A stretch of 64,000 bases of DNA from Candidatus Stammera capleta (lineage in GTDB: Bacteria > Pseudomonadota > Gammaproteobacteria > Enterobacterales > Enterobacteriaceae). The position numbers and the translations under genes were made by a program. How positions within the stretch are numbered: position 1 is the first letter of the stretch; each line of letters opens with the position of its first letter. Where the stretch lies: contig CP144853.1 in assembly GCA_036689545.1 (NCBI GenBank), positions 155,027-219,026 on the forward strand, written 5' to 3'. Below, in pieces: positions 3,733-56,811 of this stretch. The notes under the pieces are model-generated. The model worked only from the letters and a program-made list of their open reading frames with translations, did not search any database and was not told the origin of the DNA.

Positions 3733-4776
3733 TTAATTAAAATAATTAATAATTGGATCAATTAATAAATTTAAATTTCCGTTAAGTATTTCACTTAAAG
3801 AATATATCGTATAATTAATACGATGATCGGTAATTCTATTTTGTGAAAAATTATAAGTACGATTTCTATCACAACGGAATCCTGTTCCTAATAAGATTTT
3901 CTTTTCATAAGATTTTTTTAAATGACGTTTTTCTATTTCTAAAGAATATATTCTTGATTTTAATATCGTTAAAGCTTTAGATTTATTTTTATGTTGAGAT
4001 CTTTCTTGCTGACATTCTACTACTAAACCAGTTGGAATATGAGTTATTCTAACAGCTGAATCAGTAGTATTAACATGTTGACCACCAGATCCTGAAGATT
4101 TAAAAGTATTTATTTTAATATCTTCATTTTTTATAACAGGTAATTTTATTGAAGGTATATCAGGTATAACTGCTACTGTACAAGTAGAAGTATGTACTCT
4201 CCCTTGTGATTCAGTTAAAGGTACACGTTGAACTCTATGTCCACCAGATTCAAACTTTAATTTTCCATAAGCATTTTTACCAATTATTTTAAATGTTATT
4301 TCTTTATATCCTCCATAAGGAGTAGAATTTATATTTATTAATTCTACTTTATAGTGAATACTTTCTGCATATTTAACATACATTTTAAATAAATCTAAAG
4401 CAAATAACGCTGCTTCATGACCTCCGGTACCAGCTTTTATTTCTAAATAAGCATTTAAATTATCTTTTTTATCTTTAAAATGAGATGAAATACTATTTTT
4501 TAATTTATTAAAAGATTCTTTAATTAAATAATTAAGTGTTTTTATTTCTTCTTTAACTAATATAGATAATTCATTATCATTCAATAACAATTGAACATCT
4601 TTTAACTCTTCACAATATGTATTTCAAATGTTAAATAAATTTTTTATTTTAGTTAATTTTGAATATTCTATAAAAACTGACTTTTTTTCTATTTTTTTTT
4701 TTTTTAAAAAAAAATTTTCTATTTTATGTAAACGTTTATCAATTAATAAAATTTTTTTTTTTATTATATTTTTCAT
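3733..4776 (-). CDS. prfA: Peptide chain release factor 1 (UAA/UAG-specific)
   Basis: ATG 4776, TAA 3733-3735, 347 aa. GGQ motif [22 protein letters not shown]1-type P-x-T tripeptide in [23 protein letters not shown] block. In-frame TGA at 4624-4626 aligns with the Trp of E. coli CFTDWQQV. The T14 run at 4692-4705 is in frame. Confidence 0.95.
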
Positions 4777-4934
4777 AAAATTATTTTTTATATTTTGTAA
4801 ATATATTATATATATAATATATAATATTTTTTTTTTAAAAAAAATATTATTTTTCTTTATTTTTTTACTATATATAAATTTATATAATAAAATATATTTA
4901 TTATTAACTTATAAAATTATTATAAACATATTTA

Positions 4935-5617: not shown

Positions 5618-7006
5618 ATGTATAATCTAAATAATATATCTGAAATATTAAATAAATATTCTTTTAAATCTTCTAACATATTAAAAAAACTGAATATTAA
5701 AGTTAACATAGCAGGAAGAATTATATCTAAAAGAATAATGGGAAAAAGTACTTTTCTTAATATACAAGATATAGAAGGTAATATTCAAATTTGAATAAAT
5801 CAAAATATAATTACAAATATATTTTATAAAAAAATAAAAAAAATTAAATTAGGAGATATTATCTATATATCAGGAAAAATATTTAAAACAAAAACTAAAG
5901 TTTTAACTATAAAATGCACATTTTTTAAAATATTAGTTAATATATATAAATATTTACCAGATAAATTTCATAAAATAAAAAATAAAGAAACAAAATTTAG
6001 AAAAAGATATCTAGATTTAATTATTAATAAACAAACAAGAAAAATATTTTTAACTAGAACTAAAATAATAAATTTAATAAAAAAATATTTAAATAAAAAT
6101 AATTATATAGAAATAGAAACACCTATATTACATAATATTCCTGGAGGAGCAATAGCTAAACCCTTTAAAACATACCACAATAAATTTAATTTAAATATGT
6201 ATTTACGTATTTCTCCTGAACTTTATTTAAAACAACTGATTATAGGTGGATTTACTAAAATATATGAATTAAATAAAAGTTTTAGAAACGAAGGAATATC
6301 TTTACAGCATAATCCAGAATTTACAATGATAGAAATTTATAAAGCATACTCAGATTATAAAGATATTATGGTATTAACTGAAAATATTTTTTCATATTTA
6401 ATAAATTCATTATTTAAAATTAAAAAATATATAAAACATAAAAATAAAAAAATATATTTTAATATACCTTTTAAAAAGATAACTATGAAAAAAGCAATTT
6501 TTAAATACTCTAAATTATTTAAAAACATTAAAGATATAGATAATGAATTAATATTAAATAAAATTGCTAAAACACTTAATATAAATACTACTTTATATAA
6601 AGGAAAAATAATTTCTAAAATATTTGAAATAACAACAGAAAAATTTTTAATTCAACCTACATTTATTACCGAATATCCTCTAGATATATCACCATTAGCA
6701 GAAAAAAATAATAAAAAAGAAAATATAGCTAATAGATTTGAATTATTTATAAATGGTTATGAAATAGGTAATGGATTCTCTGAATTAAATAATTATAAAG
6801 AACAAAAAATAAGATTTAAACAACAAATGAATAATAATATTAACAAAAACTTTTTTTATAATAAAGAATATATAAATGCTTTAAAATATGGTTTACCCCC
6901 AACTGGAGGATTAGGTTTGGGAATAGATAGAATAATTATGTTATTAACTAATTCTACCTCTATAAAAGAAGTAATACTTTTTCCTACTTTAAAACAAAAA
7001 AACTAA
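5618..7006 (+). CDS. lysS: Lysine--tRNA ligase (class II)
   Basis: ATG 5618, TAA 7004-7006, 462 aa. OB-fold N-domain (IAGRIISKRIMGKSTFLNIQD). Class II motifs YLRISPELYLKQL, FRNEGISLQHNPEFTMIE and GGLGLGIDRIIMLLT. One TGA=Trp near 5800. No prfB lies upstream (see findings). Confidence 0.95.
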
Positions 7007-7671
7007 AAAACTTTAGATTTTAATAAAATATATTTAATAAATTTTTTTTTAAAAAAAATTTTTAAAATTATTTTTTTTTTAAAATATACATTTTTTTTTA
7101 TATTAAATTGAAATCTAAAATGTTTTGAATAAAAATTAGATAATAAATTATTTTTATTAATATTAAGAAAATTTAAAAAAGTATTTATTTCATATAAAAT
7201 TTTTTTTTTATCTAAATTATTAAATAAAGTTAAAAAAGGATCACCTATTATTTTATATAAAAAAAAAGTATTTCTATTACCTATAATAGGAATCCATAAT
7301 ATTTTACTAATTTTTTTTAATATAATTTTTTTTATATTAAAAATTTTTGAAAAATCTTCGAAATTTATAAATAAAGACATTAAACATACATCATTTAAAG
7401 GTTGATAACACATATCAATAGATATCGTTTTAATTTCAATATTAAAATAAGATATATCACAATATTTTTTTTTTTTGAAATAAAAAACATTAATATATTT
7501 TTCGATAAAACGACCTATTCAACCTTTATCATAAAATGAAAAATATTTTTTTTTAAAAAAGTTAATATTTTTAATTAAAAATAAAATAGAATAACCTGAA
7601 ATTAAATTAGATAAATAATATATATCTTTTTCAGAAATATTTTTTTTAGATAAATTAATATAAAAATTCAT
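7003..7671 (-). CDS. Hypothetical 222-aa protein, possibly a shortened and divergent YgfZ/GcvT-fold (folate-binding) protein
   Basis: ATG 7671, TAG 7003-7005, one in-frame TGA at 7522-7524. There is weak colinear resemblance to E. coli YgfZ residues about 20-235: ISEKDIYYLSNLIS vs ITGADSEKYMQGQVT, FYDKGWIGRF vs HCDAKGKMWSNLRLF, ILWIP vs LLWFE, NVYFKKK vs GISFKKGCY. The KGCYxGQE cysteine and the C-terminal domain are not recognisable. It remains a long open frame in sequence where stops are otherwise frequent. Confidence 0.35.
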
Positions 7672-7914
7672 AAATAATTTTATTACATAAATATTTTTTT
7701 TTTGTGAAATAAATATAAATATTTATTTATATTTAATAATACAAATTTTAAAAAACTAAATATTATGAAATTAAATTTAAATAATATTTAAATTATTAAT
7801 TAATAATTATAAACTAAATATATTATATACATATATAATTAATTTAAATAAAATTATAAATAAAATTTACAAAATTTAAAATTAATATAAATAAATACAT
7901 AAAAGAAATTTAAA

Positions 7915-32665: not shown

Positions 32666-32736
32666 TTTAAATAAAAATTAAAATAAATAAATATTATATA
32701 ATTATATATAAATTTTAAATAAAAATTAAAATAAAT
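32666..32736. repeat. Exact 23-bp direct repeat (48-bp offset) filling the dnaA-rpmH divergent spacer
   Basis: TTTAAATAAAAATTAAAATAAAT occurs at 32666-32688 and again at 32714-32736. The second copy runs into the rpmH ATG (32735-32737). The first begins 2 nt from the dnaA GTG. Confidence 0.85.
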
Positions 32737-32869
32737 GAAAAGAACATTTCAACCTTCAAAAATAAAAAAAATTCGTAATAATGGATTTAGAAAAAGAATG
32801 TCAACAAAAAACGGGAAAAAAATAATATCTAGAAAGAGAAATAGAAAAAGAAATAAATTATCTATATAA
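32735..32869 (+). CDS. rpmH: 50S ribosomal protein L34
   Basis: ATG 32735, TAA 32867-32869, 44 aa: [44 protein letters not shown], the classic L34 sequence. Too short for the ORF track. Divergent from dnaA as in E. coli. Confidence 0.95.
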
Positions 32870-32871
32870 AA

Positions 32872-33216
32872 TTGAAAACAAAAAAAAGATTTTTCTTTAA
32901 AAAAAATAAAAAATTAAAAAAAAAAGATTTTATTTATAAAAATTTAAAAATAATTAATAGCAAATTATTTATTTTAAAAATAAAAAATAATAATTTAAAC
33001 TTTCCTCGATTAGGATTAATAATAAAAAAAAAAATCTTTAAATATTCTATTATAAGAAATAAAATCAAAAGATTAATAGTTAATAACTTTAGAATAAAAC
33101 AATATAAATTACATAATTATGATTATATATTAACAATTAAAGAAATTTTTTTAAAATTAAATAAAAAAAAAAAAAAAAACTATATTAATTTACTATGAAA
33201 AACATATTATAAATAA
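32872..33216 (+). CDS. rnpA: RNase P protein component
   Basis: It starts at TTG 32872, 2 nt after the rpmH stop, and no ATG is available. TAA 33214-33216 after reading TGA 33196-33198. The conserved RNR-type block is IIRNKIKRLIVNNFR. An A17 run at 33163-33179 lies near the 3' end. The start is uncertain. Confidence 0.8.
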
Positions 33217-36977: not shown

Positions 36978-37961
36978 ATGAAAAATAAAATAAATAAAAT
37001 CAAAGAATATAAATTAATTTCTACATATAATAATTTAAGATTAGATATTTTTTTAAATAAATTTTTTAAAAAAAAAACAAGAAACGAAATTATTAAACAT
37101 ATTAAAGAAGGAAAAATATTAGTAAATAATAAAAAAATACTTAAACCTAGTAAAATCATAAAAAAAAAAGATATTATTACATTTAATACTTTATTAATAA
37201 AAACAAAAAAAATAAAAAAACAAAAAAAATCACTTAAAATAGTTTATGAAGACCAGTATTTAATAATAATTAATAAACAAAATAAAATTATAGTACATCC
37301 TGGAGCTGGAAATTATGAAAATACAATTTTAAATTCTTTAATGTTTTATTATCCATTGATATGTAAAAATATTCCAAGATGTGGAATAATTCATAGATTA
37401 GATAAAAATACAACAGGATTAATAATTATAGCTAAAGATATTAAAACTTATAATATTTTAATTCAACAGATGAAAACAAAAAAAATTCAAAGATTATACA
37501 AAACAATAGTATGAGGAAATATTATAAAAAATGGAATAATAAATAAATCTATATCCAGAAATAAATATAAAAGAAAAATTATGCAAATAAATGATAAAGG
37601 TAAATATGCAATAACTTATTACAAAATAATTGAAATCTTTAATCATTGTACATTACTAAAAATTAAATTATATACAGGTAGAACACATCAAATAAGAGTT
37701 CATATGAATTATATAAATCATCCTATTATAGGAGAAAAAGTTTATATTAATAAAAACATAAAATATTTTCAAAAAAAAAAATATAAATTAAACAAACTTA
37801 AAAATTTTACTAGACAGGCTTTACATGCTTATAAAGTAAAATTTATACATCCTATAAAAAATAATTGAATCGAAATTAGTTCACATATACCTTTAGATAT
37901 GTATAATTTAATCTTTAAATTAAGATTTAACAAAAATATATGTAAAATTACTTTTCTTTAA
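36978..37961 (+). CDS. rluD: 23S rRNA pseudouridine synthase RluD
   Basis: ATG 36978, TAA 37959-37961. S4 domain (LRLDIFLNKFF). IVHPGAGN, catalytic IIHRLDKNTTGLIIIAK, GRTHQIRVHM, RQALHAYKVKFIHP. TGA=Trp at 37512-37514 and 37866-37868. Confidence 0.9.
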
Positions 37962-38361
37962 ATCATCTTTCTAAAATTAATACAGCAGAAATAGAATGAA
38001 TATTTTTAATAGAATAAAATGAATTATAAAAAGAAGTTTTATTTTTAATATAAAAACGTGCAATACAAGATGTAAATTGTTCATCAGAAAAATATACTTT
38101 TAACCCAAATCTTCCATGTAAATTTTTAGCAAATTTATGTATATATGTATTAATTAATTTATAATTACCTTTTTTTTTATGAGGATAACCAATAACTACT
38201 TTTTTAACTAACCATATATTAATTAAACGTTCTACATATAATCAATTAGGAATACCTCTTTTAGCACGTAAACATACAATAGGACTAGCAGTTTTAGTAA
38301 TATACTGACCTATTGCTACTCCTATATTTTTCATACCAAAATCAAAAGACATAATAAACAT
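37948..38361 (-). CDS. ruvX: Holliday-junction-resolvase-like / pre-16S rRNA nuclease YqgF (RuvX)
   Basis: ATG 38361. MSFDFGMKNIGVAIGQYITKTASP (E. coli [24 protein letters not shown]), IP-N-W-LYVERLI, VIGYP, KFAKNLHGRFGLKVYFSDEQFTS, SISAVLILE. If the terminal TGA is Trp, the ORF ends at TAA 37948-37950 and overlaps the convergent rluD end by 14 nt. Confidence 0.88.
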
Positions 38362-38396
38362 ATAGATAATATTCACTATTTATGAACCATTATTGA

Positions 38397-44619: not shown

Positions 44620-44662
44620 TATCTTTAAAACCTTGTATATAAACTTTTTTTAAAAAAAAAAT

Positions 44663-45670
44663 TTGAAAAAATTTAATATCTTAAGATTATTCAAAAAAAT
44701 AAAAAAAAAAATAATAAATATTAAAGCAATTAAATTAATTTTAATTAACAATAAAATTATTTATATAAATAAAAAAAATATTTCTTTAAATATCAAATTT
44801 AAAAAAAAAAAAAATTTAAAAAAAAAAATTACTTACTTAAATTTTTTTAAAAATATTCATAATAATTTACCTTTTTATTTTATAAATATAAATAATAATA
44901 ATAAAAAAAAATATATTAAATACCAATGAATTATTAAAATAAAAGAAAATATTATAATTAATATTATTGAACAAAATATTAATTATAAAAATGAATTAAA
45001 TTTTAATAATATAAATAAACGTTTTTTTTTAAATAAAAAATCAACATTAAATTATATAAATTTAATTAATTTAAATAAAAAATCTTATTTTAAAAATAAA
45101 AATATTTTTCTATTAAAAGAAAAATCTCATTTAAAACAAAATTTATTTTTAATAAATGCAAAAAAAATTGAAATAAAAAATAATTTATTTTTAAAAAAAA
45201 AATCTATTTCAAATATAAAAAGTATTTCTTTAATAAATAAGAATAAATTTAAATTTTATATAAAAGTACTACATTTATCTTATAAAAGTAAAAGTTACCA
45301 ATATCATAAAAGTATTAATTTTAACAAAGGTTTTTTTAAATTTAAAGGGTTAATTAAAATACTTAAAAAAGCAAATAACACATTTTCTACTATGGAAAAT
45401 AGCAATTTATGTATTAATCAAAATACATCGATTATAACATATCCAATATTACAAATTTATAATAATAACTCTAAATGTAAACATAAAGCTATCATTTGTA
45501 ATTTAAATAAAGATGAAATTTTTTATCTTTTAAGTAGAGGAATAGGAATAAAAAAAATTAAAAAGATTTTATCTTTAAATTTTATTAATAAAATTATTAA
45601 TAAATTAAAAATAAAAAAGGTAAATATTTTTATTAAAAATTTAATTAATCTAATTATTTTTAAAAATTAA
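44663..45670 (+). CDS. sufD: Fe-S cluster assembly protein SufD (divergent, shortened)
   Basis: It lies between sufC and sufS in one frame: ORFs 44663-44929 and 45392-45670 plus the middle segment joined via TGA 44927-44929. The C-terminal block NLNKDEIFYLLSRGIGIKK matches the SufB/D family EQLFYLxSRGI motif. The start is a TTG and is uncertain. Confidence 0.7.
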
Positions 45671-47334: not shown

Positions 47335-48462
47335 TTAAACTTTTAAAAAATTAAAATTTAAATATTTATTATAAAAAAAACAAATTTTTTTTATATTTTG
47401 TAAATTATCCAATTCTAATTTAATAAAATTATTTAAAAATAAAGTTAATTGATATAAATTTATTTTTTTGTAAACAATAAAAAAATTACAAAAATATTTT
47501 TTTTGTAATAATTTAAAAAAATTTAAAAACTTTTTTTTAAACAAATTTTTCAATACTAATAATATTATTATATTATTTTTACTAAAAAATAATTTATAAT
47601 TTCTAATAAAAATAAAAATATCACTACCAGATGATATTAATAAAGTATTTTTTTTTCTTAACAATAAAAGACATTTAAATGTAATACTTTTTATAAAGAC
47701 AAAAAAATTAATATTAAAATCCAAATTTTTATAATAAAAAAACAAATTAATTTTAAAATATTTAATAAAAATTAAAAAACTTATATTATTTAACTCATAA
47801 AAAAAAGGAATAAAATTTACAATTTTTTTTTTTTTTCTAAAATTTATTTTAATTTTATTAATAATAAAATTTTGTAACTTTGAAAAATAAAACGAATTAA
47901 TTAATATTTTATTTATTTTAAGAAAACAATTTATATTAAACTGTAAATTATTTATTATAATTCCTATAAAATTATCATTTTTATTTAAATTAAAAAAAAT
48001 ATAAAAAAAATTAATTCTAGATTTTAAATTTAAAAAACAAAAATAATAATTTAAAGAAACTAAAAAAATAATTTTAGTATTAAATTTTTTTATTATTATT
48101 CTATTTAACCAATAATTATAAATTAAATTTGTATTACTAACACAACCTTCAATAATAACAACTTTAAATTTTAAAAAATACTTATTATAATAATTTAAAA
48201 AATTTAATAAATAATTATCTTTTTTATATTTTTTTTTTCTTATTAATTTAATATTAAAAGATTTTAATATAGGTATATCAAAACACATATACATTATTTG
48301 TGATGAAATATCAAAATCAAAACTTTTTTCTATTACATAAGATAAAGGTTTTATAAAACCAAATTGAACTTTTTCTTTTTTTAAAAAAAAAGCTAAAGAT
48401 AAAATAGAACTTGTTAAACCAGAATTAGTTTTATCAGAGATAAATATTACTCTTAATGACAT
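47335..48462 (-). CDS. pta: Pta N-terminal (P-loop-like + DRTGG) domain-only protein; the phosphotransacetylase catalytic domain is absent
   Basis: Uninterrupted 375-codon ORF ending in a genuine TAA (47335-47337), 24 nt from sufE. It is colinear with E. coli Pta residues 1 to about 395. Matches: [27 protein letters not shown] vs [35 protein letters not shown] vs [16 protein letters not shown] vs [17 protein letters not shown] vs [19 protein letters not shown] vs [18 protein letters not shown]...[20 protein letters not shown] vs IGALLLTG...VFMVNTNTWQTSLSLQSF. Nothing resembling the C-terminal PTA_PTB domain follows. Confidence 0.7.
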   Translation of the reverse strand: [375 protein letters not shown]

Positions 48463-48565: not shown

Positions 48566-49354
48566 ATGAATCTACAAAAAAAAATATTTCATTTAATGAA
48601 TCTAAAAACAAAATTTAATATAAAAAATGAAATTAAATCGAAAATAAATCTATTAAAAAAAATTATTCTAAAAAATAAAAATATTAAATCATTAATTTTA
48701 GGTATAAGTGGTGGAATAGATTCCACTTTAGCTGGAAAAATATGTTACATGACAGTAAAAAAATTAAAGAACCAAAATAAAAAAATAAAATTTTTAGCCA
48801 TTAATTTACCTTATAAAAAAAAAATAGATAATTATTGTAAAGAAGTTTTAAAATTTATTAAACCTACAAAATTTTTTTGTATTAACATTACTCCAATAAT
48901 TGAAATAAATAAAAAAATATTTTTAAAAAATAAAATAGAGTTAAATGACTTATTTATAGGAAATTTAAAATCAAGAGAAAGAATGAAAATATTATATTAT
49001 TTTGCTAATTTATTTAATGGAATAGTAATAGGTACTAGTAATGCTGTAGAAATAATAACTGGATATTTTACGAAATATGGTGATGGAGCTAGTGATATCA
49101 AAATATTAAAATCTTTTAATAAAAGACAAATAATAAATATTTTAAAATATTTAAAATGTCCAAAAATAATTTATTCACAAATACCTACAGCTAATTTATT
49201 AGATAAATATCCAAATTTACCAGATGAACAAGAATTAGGAATTAAATATAATATAATAGATGATTATTTAGAAGGTAAAAAAATTAAGAAAAAAGAAAAA
49301 ACACATATAGAAAAAATGTTTTTGAAAACTAAACATAAAAGAAATAAATTTTAA
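48566..49354 (+). CDS. nadE: NH3-dependent NAD+ synthetase
   Basis: Uninterrupted 262-codon ORF. PP-loop LGISGGIDSTL, NLKSRERM, GYFTKYGDGASD, PTANL, DEQELGI. Confidence 0.92.
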   Translation: MNLQKKIFHLMNLKTKFNIKNEIKSKINLLKKIILKNKNIKSLILGISGGIDSTLAGKICYMTVKKLKNQNKKIKFLAINLPYKKKIDNYCKEVLKFIKPTKFFCINITPIIEINKKIFLKNKIELNDLFIGNLKSRERMKILYYFANLFNGIVIGTSNAVEIITGYFTKYGDGASDIKILKSFNKRQIINILKYLKCPKIIYSQIPTANLLDKYPNLPDEQELGIKYNIIDDYLEGKKIKKKEKTHIEKMFLKTKHKRNKF

Positions 49355-49384: not shown

Positions 49385-50923
49385 ATGAATATAATTTTCA
49401 ACTATATAAAAATAGTTTTTTTAATATTTTTAAATAAAATATTAGGTTTTTTAAAAGATATAATTATTGCAAAAAATTTTGGAATTAATTTTGAAACAGA
49501 TGTATTTTTTTCTATATTTAAAATACCTAATTTATTAGGAAAAATTTTTACAGAAAATATATTTTCTTACACTATTGTTCCTATTATAATAAAATATAAA
49601 AAAAAAAAAAAAATACATGAAATTATTTCTTCTATTTATTATTTAATAATATTAATTGTTATATTAATAACAATTTTAGGAATATTTTTCTCAAAAAAAA
49701 TAATATATATATTTTTTCCAGGTTTTATTAAAGACATTAAAAAATTAGAATTAGCTAATAAAATATTAAAAATATTATTTCCATATACTATATTAATATC
49801 CTTAACATCATTTTTTTCTATTATATTTAATATATGAAATTATTATATTTTAAATATAATTCAACCAATTATTTTAAATATAACAATAATTATATTTTGT
49901 TTATATTTTAAAAAATATTTTTTAAATAAAATTTATATTTTAGTATGAAGTATTATATTTGGAGGAATATTACAATTAATATATCAATATATATATATAA
50001 ATAAAATTCCAATTAATATTAATCTAATTTATTTAAATTTTAAAAATTTTAAAATTAAAAACATAATTAAAAAAATTACATTACCAACATTAAATATACT
50101 GATATCTCAATTATCACAATTAACAATAAATAATTATTATTCTTTCTTAGAAAAGAAGACTATATCATGAATATATTATTCAGATAAAATAATAGATATA
50201 CCTTTAAGTATTTTTGGTACTATCATTAGTAATATAGCTATGAATAAATTATCTAAAGAATATTACAAAAAAGATAAATATAAATATTCCATAATCTTAT
50301 GAAATTATATTAAATTAATACTTTTATTGACTTTACCAAGTTTAATATTTTTAATAATTTTTTCTAAAATAATTATTTTAACATTATTTCAATATAATAA
50401 ATTTACTTATTTAGATTCACTAATGACAAGCAAATTACTATCAATATCTTCTATAGGATTAATAGGATTTAATCTAAACAAATTATTAAATATAGGTTTT
50501 TACGCTAGTAATAATATTAAAATCCCTACAATTATATCACTAATTAATTTTCTAAGTATACAATTAAATTTATTAATAAATAAAAAATTTAAAGAAAACG
50601 GAATAATTATATCTATAAATATATCAACTTATATAAGTTTAATACTCTTATACATACAATTAAAGAAAAAAAAAATTCTTTTTAAAGAAAGAAAAACTAA
50701 ATTTTTATTACAAATTACAATATCTACATTAACAATGTTAACAATTTTATTAATAACAACAAAAAAATTTATTAATATAAATAAATTATTAATTCACGGA
50801 ATAAAATACAGAATAGTAAAATTATCAACTTTAATTATTTTAGGTACAATCAGTTATATAACTAGTTTAATAATTGTTAAATTTAAATTTAAAAAATTCT
50901 TAAATAACTTAAACTTTAAGTAG
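49385..50923 (+). CDS. murJ: Lipid II flippase MurJ (MviN)
   Basis: ATG 49385, TAG 50921-50923, 512 aa. It joins ORFs 49385-49837 and 50327-50923 in one frame through five TGAs. MOP-family pattern: ILGFLKDIIIAKNFG, DVFFSIFKIPNLL, 14-TM-like hydrophobic periodicity. The A15 run at 49598-49612 is in frame. Confidence 0.82.
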
Positions 50924-50957: not shown

Positions 50958-51077
50958 TAAAAAGTTTAAATATCAAATAATTTTATTTAAATTTTTCTTT
51001 TAAATATTATCTAAAATAACTAAAAATTTTTTCAAACTTAACAATAAATATTTAAAATTAATTAATAAATAAATATA

Positions 51078-51335
51078 TTATTCTTTATCATCATCTTTTT
51101 TATTTTGAGATGTAGTTATATAATCTATAGCAGATTGAACTGTAATAATTTTTTCAGCATCTTCATCAGGAATTTCAATATTGAATTCTTCTTCTAAAGC
51201 CATAACTAATTCAACTGTATCTAAAGAATCAGCACCTAAATCATCAACAAAAGATTTATTATTTTTTACTTCATCTAATTTTATTCCTAATTGTTCACTA
51301 ATAATCTTTTTTACACGATCTTCAATGTTTAACAT
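51078..51335 (-). CDS. acpP: Acyl carrier protein
   Basis: 85-codon ORF: [73 protein letters not shown]. This is close to E. coli AcpP, including the phosphopantetheine Ser in GADSLD. It has a Lys/Asp-rich C-terminal tail. Confidence 0.96.
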
Positions 51336-51501
51336 TTTATAAACCTATATATATATAATTAATTAAAATATAAAAAATTATTTAAATAACTTTCAAAATA
51401 ACTTATTTAAAATATATATTTATTATTATAATAATACTATATATCATATATTAATCAATAAATTATTTATTACATAAAAAAATTATTTTTAAAATAAATA
51501 T

Positions 51502-51675
51502 TTATTTTTTACTATTTTTTTCTTTTTTATTAAATAATTTTTTATTTGCAACATGATGGTACAATTTTATTGTACCAGTTTCTTTATCAACACAAAGAAC
51601 AGGAATTTTTAAATGATCATGAGATCTACGCGATCCTCTTCTAGATTTACTAGATTTTTTTTTTTGTACTGCCAT
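51502..51675 (-). CDS. rpmF: 50S ribosomal protein L32
   Basis: ATG 51675, TAA 51502-51504, 57 aa. MAVQKKKSSKSRRGSRRSHDHL parallels E. coli [22 protein letters not shown]. Too short for the ORF track. Confidence 0.93.
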   Translation of the reverse strand: MAVQKKKSSKSRRGSRRSHDHLKIPVLCVDKETGTIKLYHHVANKKLFNKKEKNSKK

Positions 51676-51698
51676 AAAATCCTCAATAAATATCCATC

Positions 51699-52622
51699 TT
51701 ACTTTTTATAATATAAATTATAGATTTTTTTTAAAATTAATAATAGTTTTTTATCTAAATTTGATTTTATAGAAAAATATTTTTTTTTTACAGGATGATA
51801 AAATTTAATAAAATTAGAATGTAAAAATAATCTATTAATTTTAATTTTATTAAAAATTTTAAAATTTAAATTTTTATCACCGTAAATATTATCAAATAAA
51901 ATTGGATAACCTAAAAAACTAGTATGTATTCTTATTTGATGATTACGACCTGTAATAGGTTTAATATTTAATAAAGTAAAATTATTAACATATTTTAATA
52001 TCTGAAAATGTGTTTCAGAATACTTTTTTTTCTTTATATTTTTTTTACATAAATAACTTTTAAATATTTTAATATTTAATGGTCAACGTCCACAAACTAA
52101 AGCAATATAATTTTTATATATTTTTTTATTTTTAATATCATCATGTAATTTACACAAAGTAAATTTATTTTTTGACAAAATTAAAATTCCAGAAACATTT
52201 TTATCTAAACGATGAACTAATTCTAAATAATTTCTATTAGAAATTAAATTTCTAAATATATCTAATATATTAATATTTATATTTTTACCACCATGAACAG
52301 ATATACCATAAGGTTTATTTATAACTAATAAATAATCATCTTCATATAAAATATACTTTCTAAAACTAATAATCCTTTCTTTATTTATATAAATTTTATT
52401 TTCATTTATCTTTACTAAAGGTATACGAATTATATCATTAAATTGTAATTTATATTTTGGTAAAATACGTTTTTTATTTACCCTAATATTTCCTTTACGT
52501 AATAAAGAATAAATTTTAGACCTAGACAAAGTTTTTATTTTTTTAAATAAAAAATTATCTATACGTTGATTTAAACTATTAATATCAACTTTTACTAAAT
52601 TAAGAAAAAATTTTTTATTCAT
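51699..52622 (-). CDS. rluC: 23S rRNA pseudouridine synthase RluC
   Basis: ATG 52622, TAA 51699-51701. S4 domain (QRIDNFLFKK), LLVINKPYGISVHGG, catalytic LVHRLDKNVSGILILSK, TGRNHQIRIH, LFLHS. TGA=Trp at 52083-52085. Divergent from rne as in E. coli. Confidence 0.9.
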
Positions 52623-52735
52623 AATTTAATTAGTATAAAATACTAATGTTTTTTTTAAAAAAAATAATAATAATATAAATTAATAATTTAATTATTAATA
52701 ATTTTTAAAATATATATAAAAATACAAAATTAAAA

Positions 52736-54247
52736 ATGAAAAGAATATTAATAAATACAACATATAAAGAAAAATGACGTATTACTTTTATAAAGAACCA
52801 AATATTATACGATTTAAATATAGAAAAAACAAAATATAAAAAAAAAAATTAAATATATATAAAAGTTAAATTACTAAAATAGAATATAGCTTAGAAGCTA
52901 TATTTGTAAACTATGGTTCAAAAAAAAATGGATTACTACCTTTTTAAAAAAAAAAAGATTTTTTAATAAATATTTTTTATGAAAAAAAACATTTTAAATA
53001 TAAAGATATTTTAATACAAACTAATAAAGAAAAAAAAGGAAATAAAAGAGCAATATTAACTACTTTTATTTCTTTATCAGGAAATTATATAATATTATTA
53101 TCTAATAATCCTAATATAAATAGGATATCAAGAAAAATTTAAAATAAAGATAGATGAAATTTAAAAATTAACTTACCTCTTTAAAAATTACCTAACGACA
53201 TGGAAATTATACTCAGAACTACTAGTTTAGGACAATCAATAAAAATATTTAAAATAAATTTACTAATACAATTAAAATATTAAAAATTAATAAAAAAAAA
53301 ATTTAAATTTAAAAAATTACCAAATCTTATTCATAAAGATAAAAATATATTTAAAAAAATACTTAATTACTATTTAACAGAAAAAATTGATGAAATATTA
53401 ATAGATAATTATTAAATATATAAAATGTTAAAAACATACATTAAATATTTTTTTTAAATAAAAAAATTTAAAAAATAAAATTTTTTACAAAAAAAATATC
53501 TTTATTTAATTATTTTAAAATCAAAAAACAAATAGAATTAATTTTTAAAAGAAAAATAAAATTACCTTCTGAAGGTACAATAATTATTGATATTACAGAA
53601 ACTTTAACTTCAATAGATATTAATTCTTCAAAATCTAATAAATATTCAAATATAAAAAATACAGCTTTAAATATAAATTTAAAACAGTAAAATAAATTAC
53701 TACAAACTATGTTTACATAATATAAGTAGATTAATTGTTATAGATTTTATTGATATACTTTCTATAAAAAACAAAAAAAAATAGAAAATAAAATAAAAAA
53801 AATATCAAAAAAAGATATAGTTAAAACTAAAATAAAATATATATCTAAATTTAGTTTATCAATAATGTTAAAACAAAGATTATATCCATCTTTAAAAGAA
53901 TCTGATTATAATTTTTGTTCTAAATGTTAAAGTAATGGTTATATAAAAAATAATAAATTACTTTATTTATCTATATTTAAAAAATAGAAAAAAAATCTAT
54001 AGAAAAAAATATTAAAGAAATACATGTAATAGTAACGACTACTATTAATTAATATCTAATAAAAAAAAAATAAAAAAAAATATTTCCTACTAAAAATAAC
54101 AAAAATAATATTTAAATATTAATTAAACCTAATAAAAATTTTAAAACACCACATCACTCTATATTTAAAATAAGAAACAAAAAAAAGAAAATAAAATTTA
54201 ATTATTTAAATGATAAACTTAAAATAAGTAAAATAAATTTTTTTTAA
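52736..54247 (+). pseudogene. rne: RNase E (rne) pseudogene, catalytic N-terminal half only
   Basis: ATG 52736 gives MKRILINTTYKEKWRITFIKNQILYDLNIE (E. coli [30 protein letters not shown]). Homology then continues for about 500 residues, but only by switching frame at least five times: near 52838-52850, 53470-53480, 53685, 53775 and 54005. It also crosses at least a dozen TAA/TAG codons. Recognisable blocks: NIYKS*ITKIEYSLEAIFVNYG, GNKRAILTTFISLSGNYIILLSNNP, ILRTTSLGQS, DEILIDN, KLPSEGTIIIDITETLTSIDINS, LIVIDFID, ISKFSLSIMLKQR, CSKC*SNG (Zn-link CPRCSGTG), KTPHHSIFKIR. There is no ORF of 60 or more codons in any frame across this 1.5 kb. Confidence 0.9.
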
Positions 54248-54315
54248 AATAAAAAATTTCTTATATAATTAACAAAATTAAATTTTTTTTTAAAAAATAT
54301 TTAATAAATACATTT

Positions 54316-56811
<2,496 letters not shown>

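What the first reader, a model, noticed from the sequence alone, without database searches (positions are those of the whole stretch)
52736..54247. Recently inactivated RNase E gene: colinear with E. coli rne for about 500 residues but with several frameshifts and many nonsense codons
Seen: this is the only long stretch of the window (about 1.5 kb) with no ORF of 60 or more codons in any frame. It sits where rne belongs, divergent from rluC. Nearly every block of the RNase E catalytic half can still be read: S1 domain NIYK..ITKIE, TTFISLSG, DNase I-like IIIDITETLTSIDINS, LIVIDFID, Zn-link CSKC. Reading them requires at least five frame changes, several at poly(A) runs such as the A11 run at 52838-52848. 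It also requires reading through at least a dozen TAA/TAG codons. The stops replace different E. coli residues: Lys (52867-52869, KGK to KS*), Glu (RRIEG to RKI*N), and Trp (53281-53283, LKHWE to LKY*K). Each is a single-base change to TAA, as expected from A/T-biased decay, so this is not a second recoding. The C-terminal degradosome scaffold is gone. Established: RNase E is essential in E. coli and is usually retained even in small gammaproteobacterial genomes. Inference: the loss is recent, since homology is intact and the gene is not yet deleted. RNA turnover must rely on other nucleases.
Basis: partly seen in the sequence, partly recalled or inferred. Interest (0 to 1): 0.65.

Follow-up and report, generated by a model that had tools for sequence, protein, structure and literature searches.

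The report
Decayed RNase E gene in Stammera
This stretch is a real, fairly young dead copy of the RNase E gene in the largest known genome of the leaf-beetle gut symbiont 'Candidatus Stammera capleta'. It is an ordinary case of gene decay, notable only because every other sequenced relative checked keeps this normally essential gene open.

Summary
Window 52736-54220 (+) is colinear with residues 1-505 of E. coli RNase E (39% identity; tblastn E 9e-74; Pfam RNase_E_G 1.7e-51). It scores as RNase E (411 bits), not RNase G (146 bits). It sits in the ancestral slot, divergent from rluC and upstream of leuS. Reading it needs five frame changes and passes 12 in-frame TAA codons.

It is not an assembly artefact. 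Independent unitigs of the source run, at about 735x depth, match it exactly over three frameshifts and five stops. It is not recoding either. RF1 is intact, and no checked intact gene in the window has an internal TAA or TAG.

The genome uses UGA=Trp and about 15% GC, and its own contig is 325,578 bp. It fits 'Ca. Stammera capleta' CP144853.1. Thirty-two Stammera-type relatives and two outgroups all keep rne open (399-599 aa) in the same synteny. The relic differs at 21 of 86 columns that are invariant in them; intact sequences differ at 0-3.

Stop density and excess amino-acid divergence suggest roughly 0.06-0.13 neutral substitutions per site since constraint was lost. That is young compared with the saturated lineage divergence, but not brand new.

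The missing C-terminal scaffold is ancestral to the clade. Which nucleases compensate could not be tested.

The parts
51699..52622 (-). rluC, intact (307 aa under code 4), divergent neighbour of rne as in E. coli
   Evidence: NCBIfam RluC 276.6 bits. Same position in relatives L002, L003, L006 and L007 and in E. coli.
52626..52735 (.). 110-nt rluC-rne spacer, the presumed divergent promoter region (inferred only)
   Evidence: Spacer length is similar to relatives (118-130 nt in L002 and L003). The promoter scan was uninformative: 18 sites against 22.3 expected.
52736..52837 (+). rne relic, segment 1: start codon and residues 1-34 (MKRILIN...), window frame 2
52838..52850 (+). Frameshift 1, in or next to the A11 homopolymer 52838-52848
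52840..53454 (+). rne relic, segment 2: residues 36-248 (S1 domain, 5' sensor R169/T170, start of the RNase H-like part). Six in-frame TAA at 52867, 52945, 53140, 53182, 53281, 53413.
   Evidence: Unitigs of run X1 match 53132-53351 exactly at depth of about 600-810.
53443..53456 (+). Frameshift 2, near T8 and A7 runs
53457..53705 (+). rne relic, segment 3: residues 249-333 (DNase I-like domain, with D303 at 53616 and N305 at 53622 still encoded). TAA at 53469 and 53688.
   Evidence: A 1,069-nt unitig at depth 734.6 is identical over 53500-53755.
53703..53706 (+). Frameshift 3, not at a homopolymer
   Evidence: Covered by the unitig.
53707..53766 (+). rne relic, segment 4: residues 334-353 (LIVIDFID, D346 at 53743 still encoded)
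53764..53773 (+). Frameshift 4, at A6 and A9 runs
   Evidence: The unitig is colinear, with no gaps.
53769..53978 (+). rne relic, segment 5: residues 354-424, including Zn-link cysteines C404 (53916) and C407 (53925). TAA at 53928 directly follows CSKC.
53979..53980 (+). Frameshift 5
   Evidence: Covered by the unitig.
53981..54220 (+). rne relic, segment 6: residues 425-505 (small, thioredoxin-like domain). TAA at 54050, 54071, 54113.
   Evidence: Pfam RNase_E_G_Thio 6e-12.
54221..54315 (+). Low-complexity remainder of the short Stammera-type C-terminal tail, or spacer before leuS. Alignment here is unreliable. Further TAA at 54245 and 54266.
   Evidence: Relatives have rne ending 2-30 nt before leuS.
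54316..56811 (+). leuS, intact (831 aa), immediately downstream and co-oriented

Best explanation
Window 52736-54220 is a non-functional relic (pseudogene) of rne, the RNase E gene. The host genome is a 'Candidatus Stammera capleta' strain, most likely CP144853.1, the largest genome of the clade at 325.6 kb.

Shown: purifying selection on rne has been lost on this lineage. The sequence has since drifted under the genome's strong A/T-biased mutation pressure. Single-base changes turned Lys, Glu, Trp and other codons into 12 TAA stops. Small indels, several of them at homopolymers, produced five frameshifts. Conserved Glu, Gly, Ala and Arg residues were replaced.

Inferred: no RNase E protein can be made. 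Translation from the original ATG would stop after about 37 codons.

Shown: little has been deleted. 492 of about 505 codons of the catalytic half are still alignable, codon-position composition is still gene-like, and most catalytic residues are still encoded.

Inferred from this: about 0.06-0.13 neutral substitutions per site have passed since inactivation. That is young relative to this lineage's separation from other sequenced Stammera.

The C-terminal degradosome scaffold had already been lost in the common ancestor of the clade.
For: - Homology and identity as rne. tblastn E 8.7e-74, colinear over aa 1-505. The frameshift-aware alignment gives 39% identity to E. coli and 50-52% to Stammera Rne. 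Pfam RNase_E_G 1.7e-51 plus the thioredoxin-like domain. NCBIfam RNase E scores 411.5 bits against 145.8 for RNase G.
- Orthologous slot. The order sufBCDSE-murJ-acpP-rpmF-rluC<>rne-leuS-holA-recDBC is the same as in CP144777.1 and CP144774.1. The rluC<>rne-leuS core is the same in CP043989.1 and CP144769.1.
- Disruptions are real. Unitigs of the source run are identical over 53132-53351. One 1,069-nt unitig at depth 734.6 is identical over 53500-53755 and 53812-54036, colinear and without gaps. Twelve stops are substitutions, not homopolymer length errors.
- Stops mean stop. RF1 is intact. In-frame stop density is 0.001-0.003 in six intact genes, 0.024 in the relic and 0.12-0.13 in its off-frames.
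- Relaxed constraint. The relic differs at 21 of 86 columns invariant among 34 intact sequences, including F67L and W191 to stop. Each intact sequence differs at 0-3 of about 65, outgroups included.
- Excess divergence. Identity to relatives divided by identity between relatives is 0.70 for rne, against about 0.8 for most neighbouring genes.
- Composition. G content is 5.7%, against 8.7% in the two intact orthologues compared.
- Age. Neutral simulation of intact Stammera rne gives 12 stops at d of about 0.10-0.13. The excess amino-acid divergence suggests about 0.06-0.1. Four-fold sites between this lineage and its relatives are saturated.
- Organism. Own contig is 325,578 bp. PMC11842425 names CP043989.1 (212.7 kb, which is L006) and CP144853.1 (325.6 kb) as the smallest and largest Ca. 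Stammera capleta genomes. The Stammera preprint reports code 4 and genomes of 216-340 kb.
Against: - No transcript or protein data exist for this symbiont: no RNA run was found.
- Only parts of the relic were checked directly against unitigs. 52740-53131 was covered only patchily. 53352-53499 and 54037-54315 were not shown directly, though 97% of sampled 31-mers of 51000-56000 are in the run.
- The age estimate rests on a simple HKY-type model, with composition taken from the relic itself and an assumed kappa of 1-3.
- The window's lineage sits on a long branch, so part of its excess divergence could be lineage-wide. murJ is even more divergent yet remains open.
- The organism's name rests on matching contig length and on relatives, not on a record title that I saw.
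Confidence: 0.95

Rival explanations
1. Sequencing or assembly artefact: the gene is intact in the organism, and the frameshifts are homopolymer length errors.
For: Three or four of the five frameshifts lie at or near A or T runs. The region is very low in complexity.
Against: - Twelve in-frame stops are base substitutions.
- About 50 other genes in the same window, full of equally long A runs, are open.
- Independent Logan unitigs at about 735x depth reproduce three frameshifts and five stops without any difference.
- The relic also has 21 replacements at invariant sites.
Confidence: 0.01
2. The gene is still expressed through recoding: transcriptional or ribosomal slippage at poly(A) runs plus read-through or reassignment of UAA.
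For: Slippage at long poly(A) tracts is known to rescue frameshifted genes in Buchnera and Blochmannia (from my own knowledge, not checked here). The first frameshift is in an A11 run. The genome has already reassigned UGA.
Against: - RF1 is intact.
- None of the six intact genes checked has an internal TAA or TAG, and about 50 long frames in the window are open under code 4.
- The stops replace five or more different residues (K, E, L, W, S, A, R), so no single reassignment fits.
- One frameshift is not at a homopolymer.
- Invariant residues are mutated at about ten times the rate seen in intact orthologues.
Confidence: 0.01
3. An old relic held in place by some other function, such as a promoter or leader for the downstream leuS-holA genes, rather than a young pseudogene awaiting deletion.
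For: - In relatives, rne, leuS and holA are co-oriented with gaps of 2-30 nt, which suggests co-transcription.
- The relic is the only long non-coding stretch in 64 kb.
- No terminator-like site lies between it and leuS.
Against: - In-frame stop density is only a fifth of the off-frame level, and codon-position composition is still gene-like.
- Identity to orthologues is 50-52%.
- An old neutral sequence in a genome with saturated synonymous sites would be unrecognisable.
- A leader function would not need 1.5 kb.
- The two ideas are not exclusive: need for the upstream promoter may slow deletion of the 5' end.
Confidence: 0.05
4. The locus is RNase G (rng) or another paralogue, not rne.
For: The alignable part is only the catalytic half, about the length of RNase G.
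Against: - NCBIfam RNase E scores 411.5 bits against 145.8 for RNase G.
- The position, divergent from rluC, is the rne slot in E. coli and in all relatives fetched.
- The closest proteins are the clade's Rne.
Confidence: 0.01

Closest known systems
RNase E (Rne) of Enterobacterales, the E. coli rne catalytic half (residues 1-529)
   Same: - Colinear over residues 1-505.
- All domains are recognisable: S1, 5' sensor, DNase I-like, Zn-link and small domain.
- D303, N305, D346, R169, T170, K112, C404 and C407 are still encoded.
- Same divergent arrangement with rluC.
   Different: - Not an open gene: five frameshifts and 12 TAA stops.
- F67L, D338N and 21 changes at clade-invariant sites.
- No C-terminal scaffold half.
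Intact rne of other 'Ca. Stammera capleta' genomes (for example CP144777.1, 560 aa; CP144774.1, 565 aa; CP043989.1, 399 aa)
   Same: Same locus and synteny. 47-53% amino-acid identity to the read-through. Same code 4, the same extreme A+T content, and the same absence of the long degradosome scaffold.
   Different: All of them are open under code 4. The smallest genomes have trimmed rne to about 400 aa, ending just after the Zn-link, yet keep it open. Here the gene is full length but dead.
Pseudogenes in reduced insect-symbiont genomes decaying under A/T-biased mutation (Buchnera, Blochmannia and others)
   Same: Stops arise by single changes to TAA, indels occur at homopolymers, G+C is lost, and neighbouring genes stay intact.
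   Different: The gene affected is essential in E. coli (established knowledge) and is retained by all other sequenced members of the clade that I could examine.

Membership tests
RNase E/G family (Pfam PF10150; NCBIfam NF008074 RNase E) | Significant sequence match to the catalytic domain profile | tested here: met
   On the read-through translation: PF10150 at 175.7 bits (cut-off 25.5) and PF20833 at 46 bits. NF008074 at 411.5 bits over profile positions 1-502 of 1068. This is below the equivalog cut-off of 908 because the C-terminal half is absent.
RNase E/G family (Pfam PF10150; NCBIfam NF008074 RNase E) | RNase E rather than RNase G | tested here: met
   411.5 bits against 145.8 bits. The locus is the rne slot next to rluC.
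RNase E/G family (Pfam PF10150; NCBIfam NF008074 RNase E) | Uninterrupted reading frame able to give the enzyme | tested here: not met
   Five frameshifts and 12 in-frame TAA, confirmed in unitigs.
RNase E/G family (Pfam PF10150; NCBIfam NF008074 RNase E) | Catalytic and 5'-sensor residues (D303, N305, D346; R169, T170; K112, F57, F67; C404, C407). The residue list comes from my own knowledge of the E. coli structure. | tested here: inconclusive
   Most are still encoded. F67 is changed to L and D338 to N. This is moot because the frame is broken.
RNase E/G family (Pfam PF10150; NCBIfam NF008074 RNase E) | C-terminal degradosome scaffold | tested here: not met
   Absent here and in all 32 Stammera relatives (399-599 aa).
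Pseudogene (unitary, decaying in place) | Disabling mutations that are real in the DNA | tested here: met
Pseudogene (unitary, decaying in place) | Intact orthologue at the same locus in relatives | tested here: met
   34 intact sequences were found. Four loci were fetched with the same synteny.
Pseudogene (unitary, decaying in place) | Signature of relaxed selection beyond the disabling mutations | tested here: met
   21 of 86 invariant columns are changed, against 0-3 in intact sequences. The identity ratio is 0.70 against about 0.8 for most neighbours. G content is 5.7% against 8.7% in the two intact orthologues compared.
Pseudogene (unitary, decaying in place) | No functional product (no transcript or protein) | not testable with these tools
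   No RNA-seq run holds the stretch.

The most novel reading that the evidence does not exclude
This Stammera lineage may live with no RNase E/G-type endoribonuclease at all. Every other sequenced Stammera examined keeps rne, even genomes 100 kb smaller. That would make it a natural knockout of an enzyme that is essential in E. coli. It would imply that mRNA decay and rRNA/tRNA 5' maturation are handled by some other nuclease retained only in this larger genome, or are simply left undone.
Probability: 0.4. Interest if true: 0.5.

Novelty: new member of a known kind. Interest (0 to 1): 0.3.

Why it matters
Gene decay in insect symbionts is routine, so the pseudogene itself is not a new kind of thing. 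Its modest value is comparative.

Within one co-speciating clade, all 32 Stammera-type relatives in the protein database hold rne open. The smallest genomes have trimmed it to a 400-aa core and still keep it. One lineage, with the largest genome, has lost it.

That contrast gives a defined natural experiment on when RNase E becomes dispensable in a gammaproteobacterium. It also provides a dated example of neutral decay, useful for calibrating mutation spectra and deletion rates in a 13-15% G+C genome.

For annotation, the stretch should be marked as an rne pseudogene rather than as intergenic DNA or several small ORFs.

Tried and rejected
- **Exact-protein look-ups of the window's own NadE and GyrB**. 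Nothing is on record, so the rest of this genome could not be fetched and its other RNases could not be listed.
- **The single genome-contig scan with the read-through Rne**. The tool chose low-complexity Lys-rich peptides as patterns and returned only a Rickettsia contig and a Pelagibacteraceae contig.
- **Read laying.** Run X2 turned out to hold the same strain at about 3x depth, not a sister strain, so the inactivation could not be dated from relatives.
- **Accession searches in papers.** The search for CP14477x found nothing relevant. The supplement of the Stammera preprint has no mention of rne. A general literature search on RNase E loss in endosymbionts gave nothing directly applicable.
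- **No RNA-seq run was found**.
- **The promoter and terminator scan is uninformative at this base composition**.
- **Rejected readings:** assembly error, recoding or slippage rescue, RNase G, and a second rne/rng copy within the window. On the last point, tblastn with Rne hits only this locus.
- **dN/dS was not attempted**, because four-fold sites are saturated.

Full report
**What the window is**

The 64-kb window has 12-22% G+C. Read with UGA as tryptophan, it is almost entirely covered by long open frames. Under the standard code these same genes break up.

The window's GyrB is 100% identical to a database protein from a 325,578-bp contig. The next best hits, at 57-63% identity, are unnamed NCBI genomes of 250-314 kb. 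Four of these relatives were fetched:
- CP144777.1, 312 kb
- CP144774.1, 314 kb
- CP043989.1, 212.7 kb
- CP144769.1, 240 kb

A published paper names CP043989.1 (212.7 kb) and CP144853.1 (325.6 kb) as the smallest and largest genomes of the leaf-beetle symbiont 'Candidatus Stammera capleta' (PMC11842425). The Stammera comparative-genomics preprint reports 50 genomes of 216-340 kb annotated with genetic code 4, with the largest in hispine beetles (10.1101/2023.12.12.571295). The source run is labelled insect metagenome, 2024. I therefore take the window to come from the largest Stammera genome. This rests on matching contig length and on the relatives, not on a record title that I saw.

**Checking the observation**

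tblastn of E. coli RNase E (fetched) against the window under code 4 gives four colinear segments. They cover residues 1-505 on window 52736-54220 in three frames, with a summed E of 8.7e-74, and nothing else in the window matches.

A frameshift-aware protein-to-DNA alignment that I wrote gives one path from the ATG at 52736 to 54220, with 191 identities over 492 codons.
- It has five frame changes: about 52838 (inside the A11 run 52838-52848), 53455, 53706, 53767 and 53979.
- It passes twelve in-frame stops, all TAA: 52867, 52945, 53140, 53182, 53281, 53413, 53469, 53688, 53928, 54050, 54071 and 54113.
- The same five shifts and twelve stops appear when two Stammera Rne proteins guide the alignment, at 50-52% identity.

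The read-through translation matches Pfam RNase_E_G (1.7e-51) and the RNase E/G thioredoxin-like domain. It scores 411.5 bits on NCBIfam RNase E against 145.8 on RNase G.

One detail needs correcting. Under code 4, read stop to stop, the stretch does contain open runs of 65-76 codons. It is nonetheless the only large gap between genes: 1,627 nt against at most 292 nt elsewhere.

**Is it real DNA?**

The source run's independently built Logan unitigs match the window exactly in several places.
- Short unitigs at depth of about 600-810 match 53132-53351.
- A single 1,069-nt unitig at depth 734.6 matches 53500-53755 and 53812-54036.
- The record coordinates of that unitig are colinear between the two stretches, so there is no hidden indel.

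Together these cover three frameshifts and five stops. In addition, 97% of sampled 31-mers of 51000-56000 are present in the run. The stops are substitutions, and about 50 neighbouring genes with equally long A runs are open. Assembly error is therefore excluded for practical purposes.

**Is it decoded anyway?**

- Release factor 1 is intact (412-414 bits).
- Six intact genes checked have only their terminal stop, at 0.001-0.003 stops per codon. The relic has 0.024 in frame and 0.12-0.13 in its off-frames.
- The TAA codons stand where E. coli has K, K, E, L, W, K, S, A, S, S, R and R. No single reassignment would fit.
- One frameshift is not at a homopolymer.

Rescue by slippage or read-through is not credible.

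**Relaxed constraint**

A database search with the read-through found intact Rne proteins of 399-599 aa from 32 Stammera-type contigs of 212-314 kb. They are 46-53% identical to the relic. Named outgroups such as Donacia symbionts and Purcelliella also appeared.

In an alignment of 34 intact sequences plus the relic, I compared each sequence with the columns that are invariant in all the others.
- The relic differs at 21 of 86 such columns.
- Each intact sequence, outgroups included, differs at 0-3 of about 65.

The changes include F67L, W191 to stop, several Glu to Lys, and Gly to Ser, Tyr, Glu or Arg. This is the direction expected under G/C-to-A/T pressure. The core catalytic residues D303, N305, D346, R169, T170, K112, C404 and C407 are still encoded.

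The relic's G content is 5.7%, against 8.7% in the two intact orthologues compared.

**How young?**

For 14 neighbouring genes I divided identity between the window and two relatives by identity between those two relatives. The ratio is mostly 0.74-0.88. For rne it is 0.70, which points to roughly 14% extra amino-acid change.

I simulated neutral evolution of intact Stammera rne under the relic's base composition. Twelve stops in 492 codons appear at about 0.10-0.13 substitutions per site, at which point amino-acid identity to the starting sequence is about 0.78.

The two measures together point to about 0.06-0.13 substitutions per site, or on the order of 100-200 changes. Four-fold degenerate sites between this lineage and the relatives are saturated. 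Between the two relatives they differ at 35-44%, against a ceiling of about 50%.

The inactivation therefore occupies a small terminal part of a very long branch. Other signs agree:
- Almost nothing has been deleted: 492 of about 505 codons remain.
- Codon-position composition is still gene-like. Third-position G+C is 4.6%, against 17-18% at positions 1 and 2.

'Recent' is fair in that relative sense only. The estimate depends on a simple substitution model.

**Context in the clade**

Synteny is identical in the relatives: sufBCDSE-murJ-acpP-rpmF-rluC, then divergently rne-leuS-holA, then recD-recB-recC.

All relatives lack the long C-terminal scaffold, so that loss is ancestral and not part of this event.

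The two smallest genomes examined keep an open rne of 399 and 403 aa. It ends just after the Zn-link CxxC motif, followed by 141-198 nt of spacer. So selection keeps rne open in every Stammera relative examined, even while trimming it. The largest genome is the one that lost it.

**What could not be settled**

Which nucleases compensate is unknown.
- Only 64 kb of the genome was available.
- That window contains rnpA (next to rpmH) and ruvX/yqgF.
- It contains no second Rne/Rng gene.
- The window's own genome could not be fetched, and the one genome-collection scan was wasted.
- No RNA-seq exists.
- The only other run holding the sequence carries the same strain at about 3x depth, not a sister strain.

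**Verdict**

This is a genuine, relatively young rne pseudogene in the ancestral locus, produced by ordinary A/T-biased decay.
- The scaffold loss is ancestral.
- 'Recent' is relative.
- Compensation by other nucleases is untested.

The phenomenon is of a well-known kind. Its interest lies in the clade-wide contrast and in the possibility, not excluded here, that this symbiont lacks any RNase E/G-type enzyme.

Noticed in passing
window 47335-48462 (-) and 48566-49354 (+): A 375-aa open frame matches only the N-terminal part of phosphate acetyltransferase Pta: profile positions 4-289 of 708, 43.8 bits against a cut-off of 418. It looks like a truncated, strongly diverged pta with no catalytic PTA domain. 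It and an intact nadE lie between sufE and murJ, where relatives L002 and L003 have nothing.
   Followed up: partly
window 49385-50923 (+): murJ is open (276.7 bits) but only 42-43% identical to the two relatives, which are 87% identical to each other. The ratio is 0.48, against about 0.8 for other genes. This suggests strongly accelerated evolution of murJ on this lineage.
   Followed up: partly
window 44654-45670 (+): sufD has only 338 open codons, against 424-427 aa in relatives, and its first ATG is very late. It is either N-terminally shortened or uses a non-ATG start. Its score is 128 bits against a cut-off of 222.
   Followed up: partly
window 7003-7722 (-): A MutH-like open frame scores only 66 bits against an equivalog cut-off of 230. 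This may be another gene under relaxed constraint.
   Followed up: no
L006:4001-5398 (CP043989.1) and L007:4001-5353 (CP144769.1): The smallest Stammera genomes carry an open rne of only 399 and 403 aa. It ends right after the Zn-link CxxC, so the small domain has been deleted, and 141-198 nt of A/T-rich spacer follow before leuS.
   Followed up: yes
L003:15023-16899 and L002:14187-14726: In relative CP144774.1, recD is called as two pieces (532 aa plus 86 aa RecD_N). In CP144777.1, holA is 179 aa against 252-264 aa elsewhere. These may be further decaying genes in the relatives.
   Followed up: no
window ~32735-33216 (+): rpmH and rnpA (the RNase P protein, with an RNR-like motif IIRNKIKR) lie between dnaA and yidC, as in E. 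coli. rnpA and ruvX/yqgF (37948-38379) are the only nuclease-related genes seen in the window.
   Followed up: partly
window 51708-51943: A second public run (X2, 2021, a different study) holds a 236-nt contig identical to this stretch at depth 3.4. The same symbiont strain is therefore present at low coverage in an older data set.
   Followed up: partly
whole window: UGA is read as Trp throughout. Genes such as leuS, recB and gyrB are open only under code 4. RF1 (prfA, within 3733-4908, -) is intact.
   Followed up: yes
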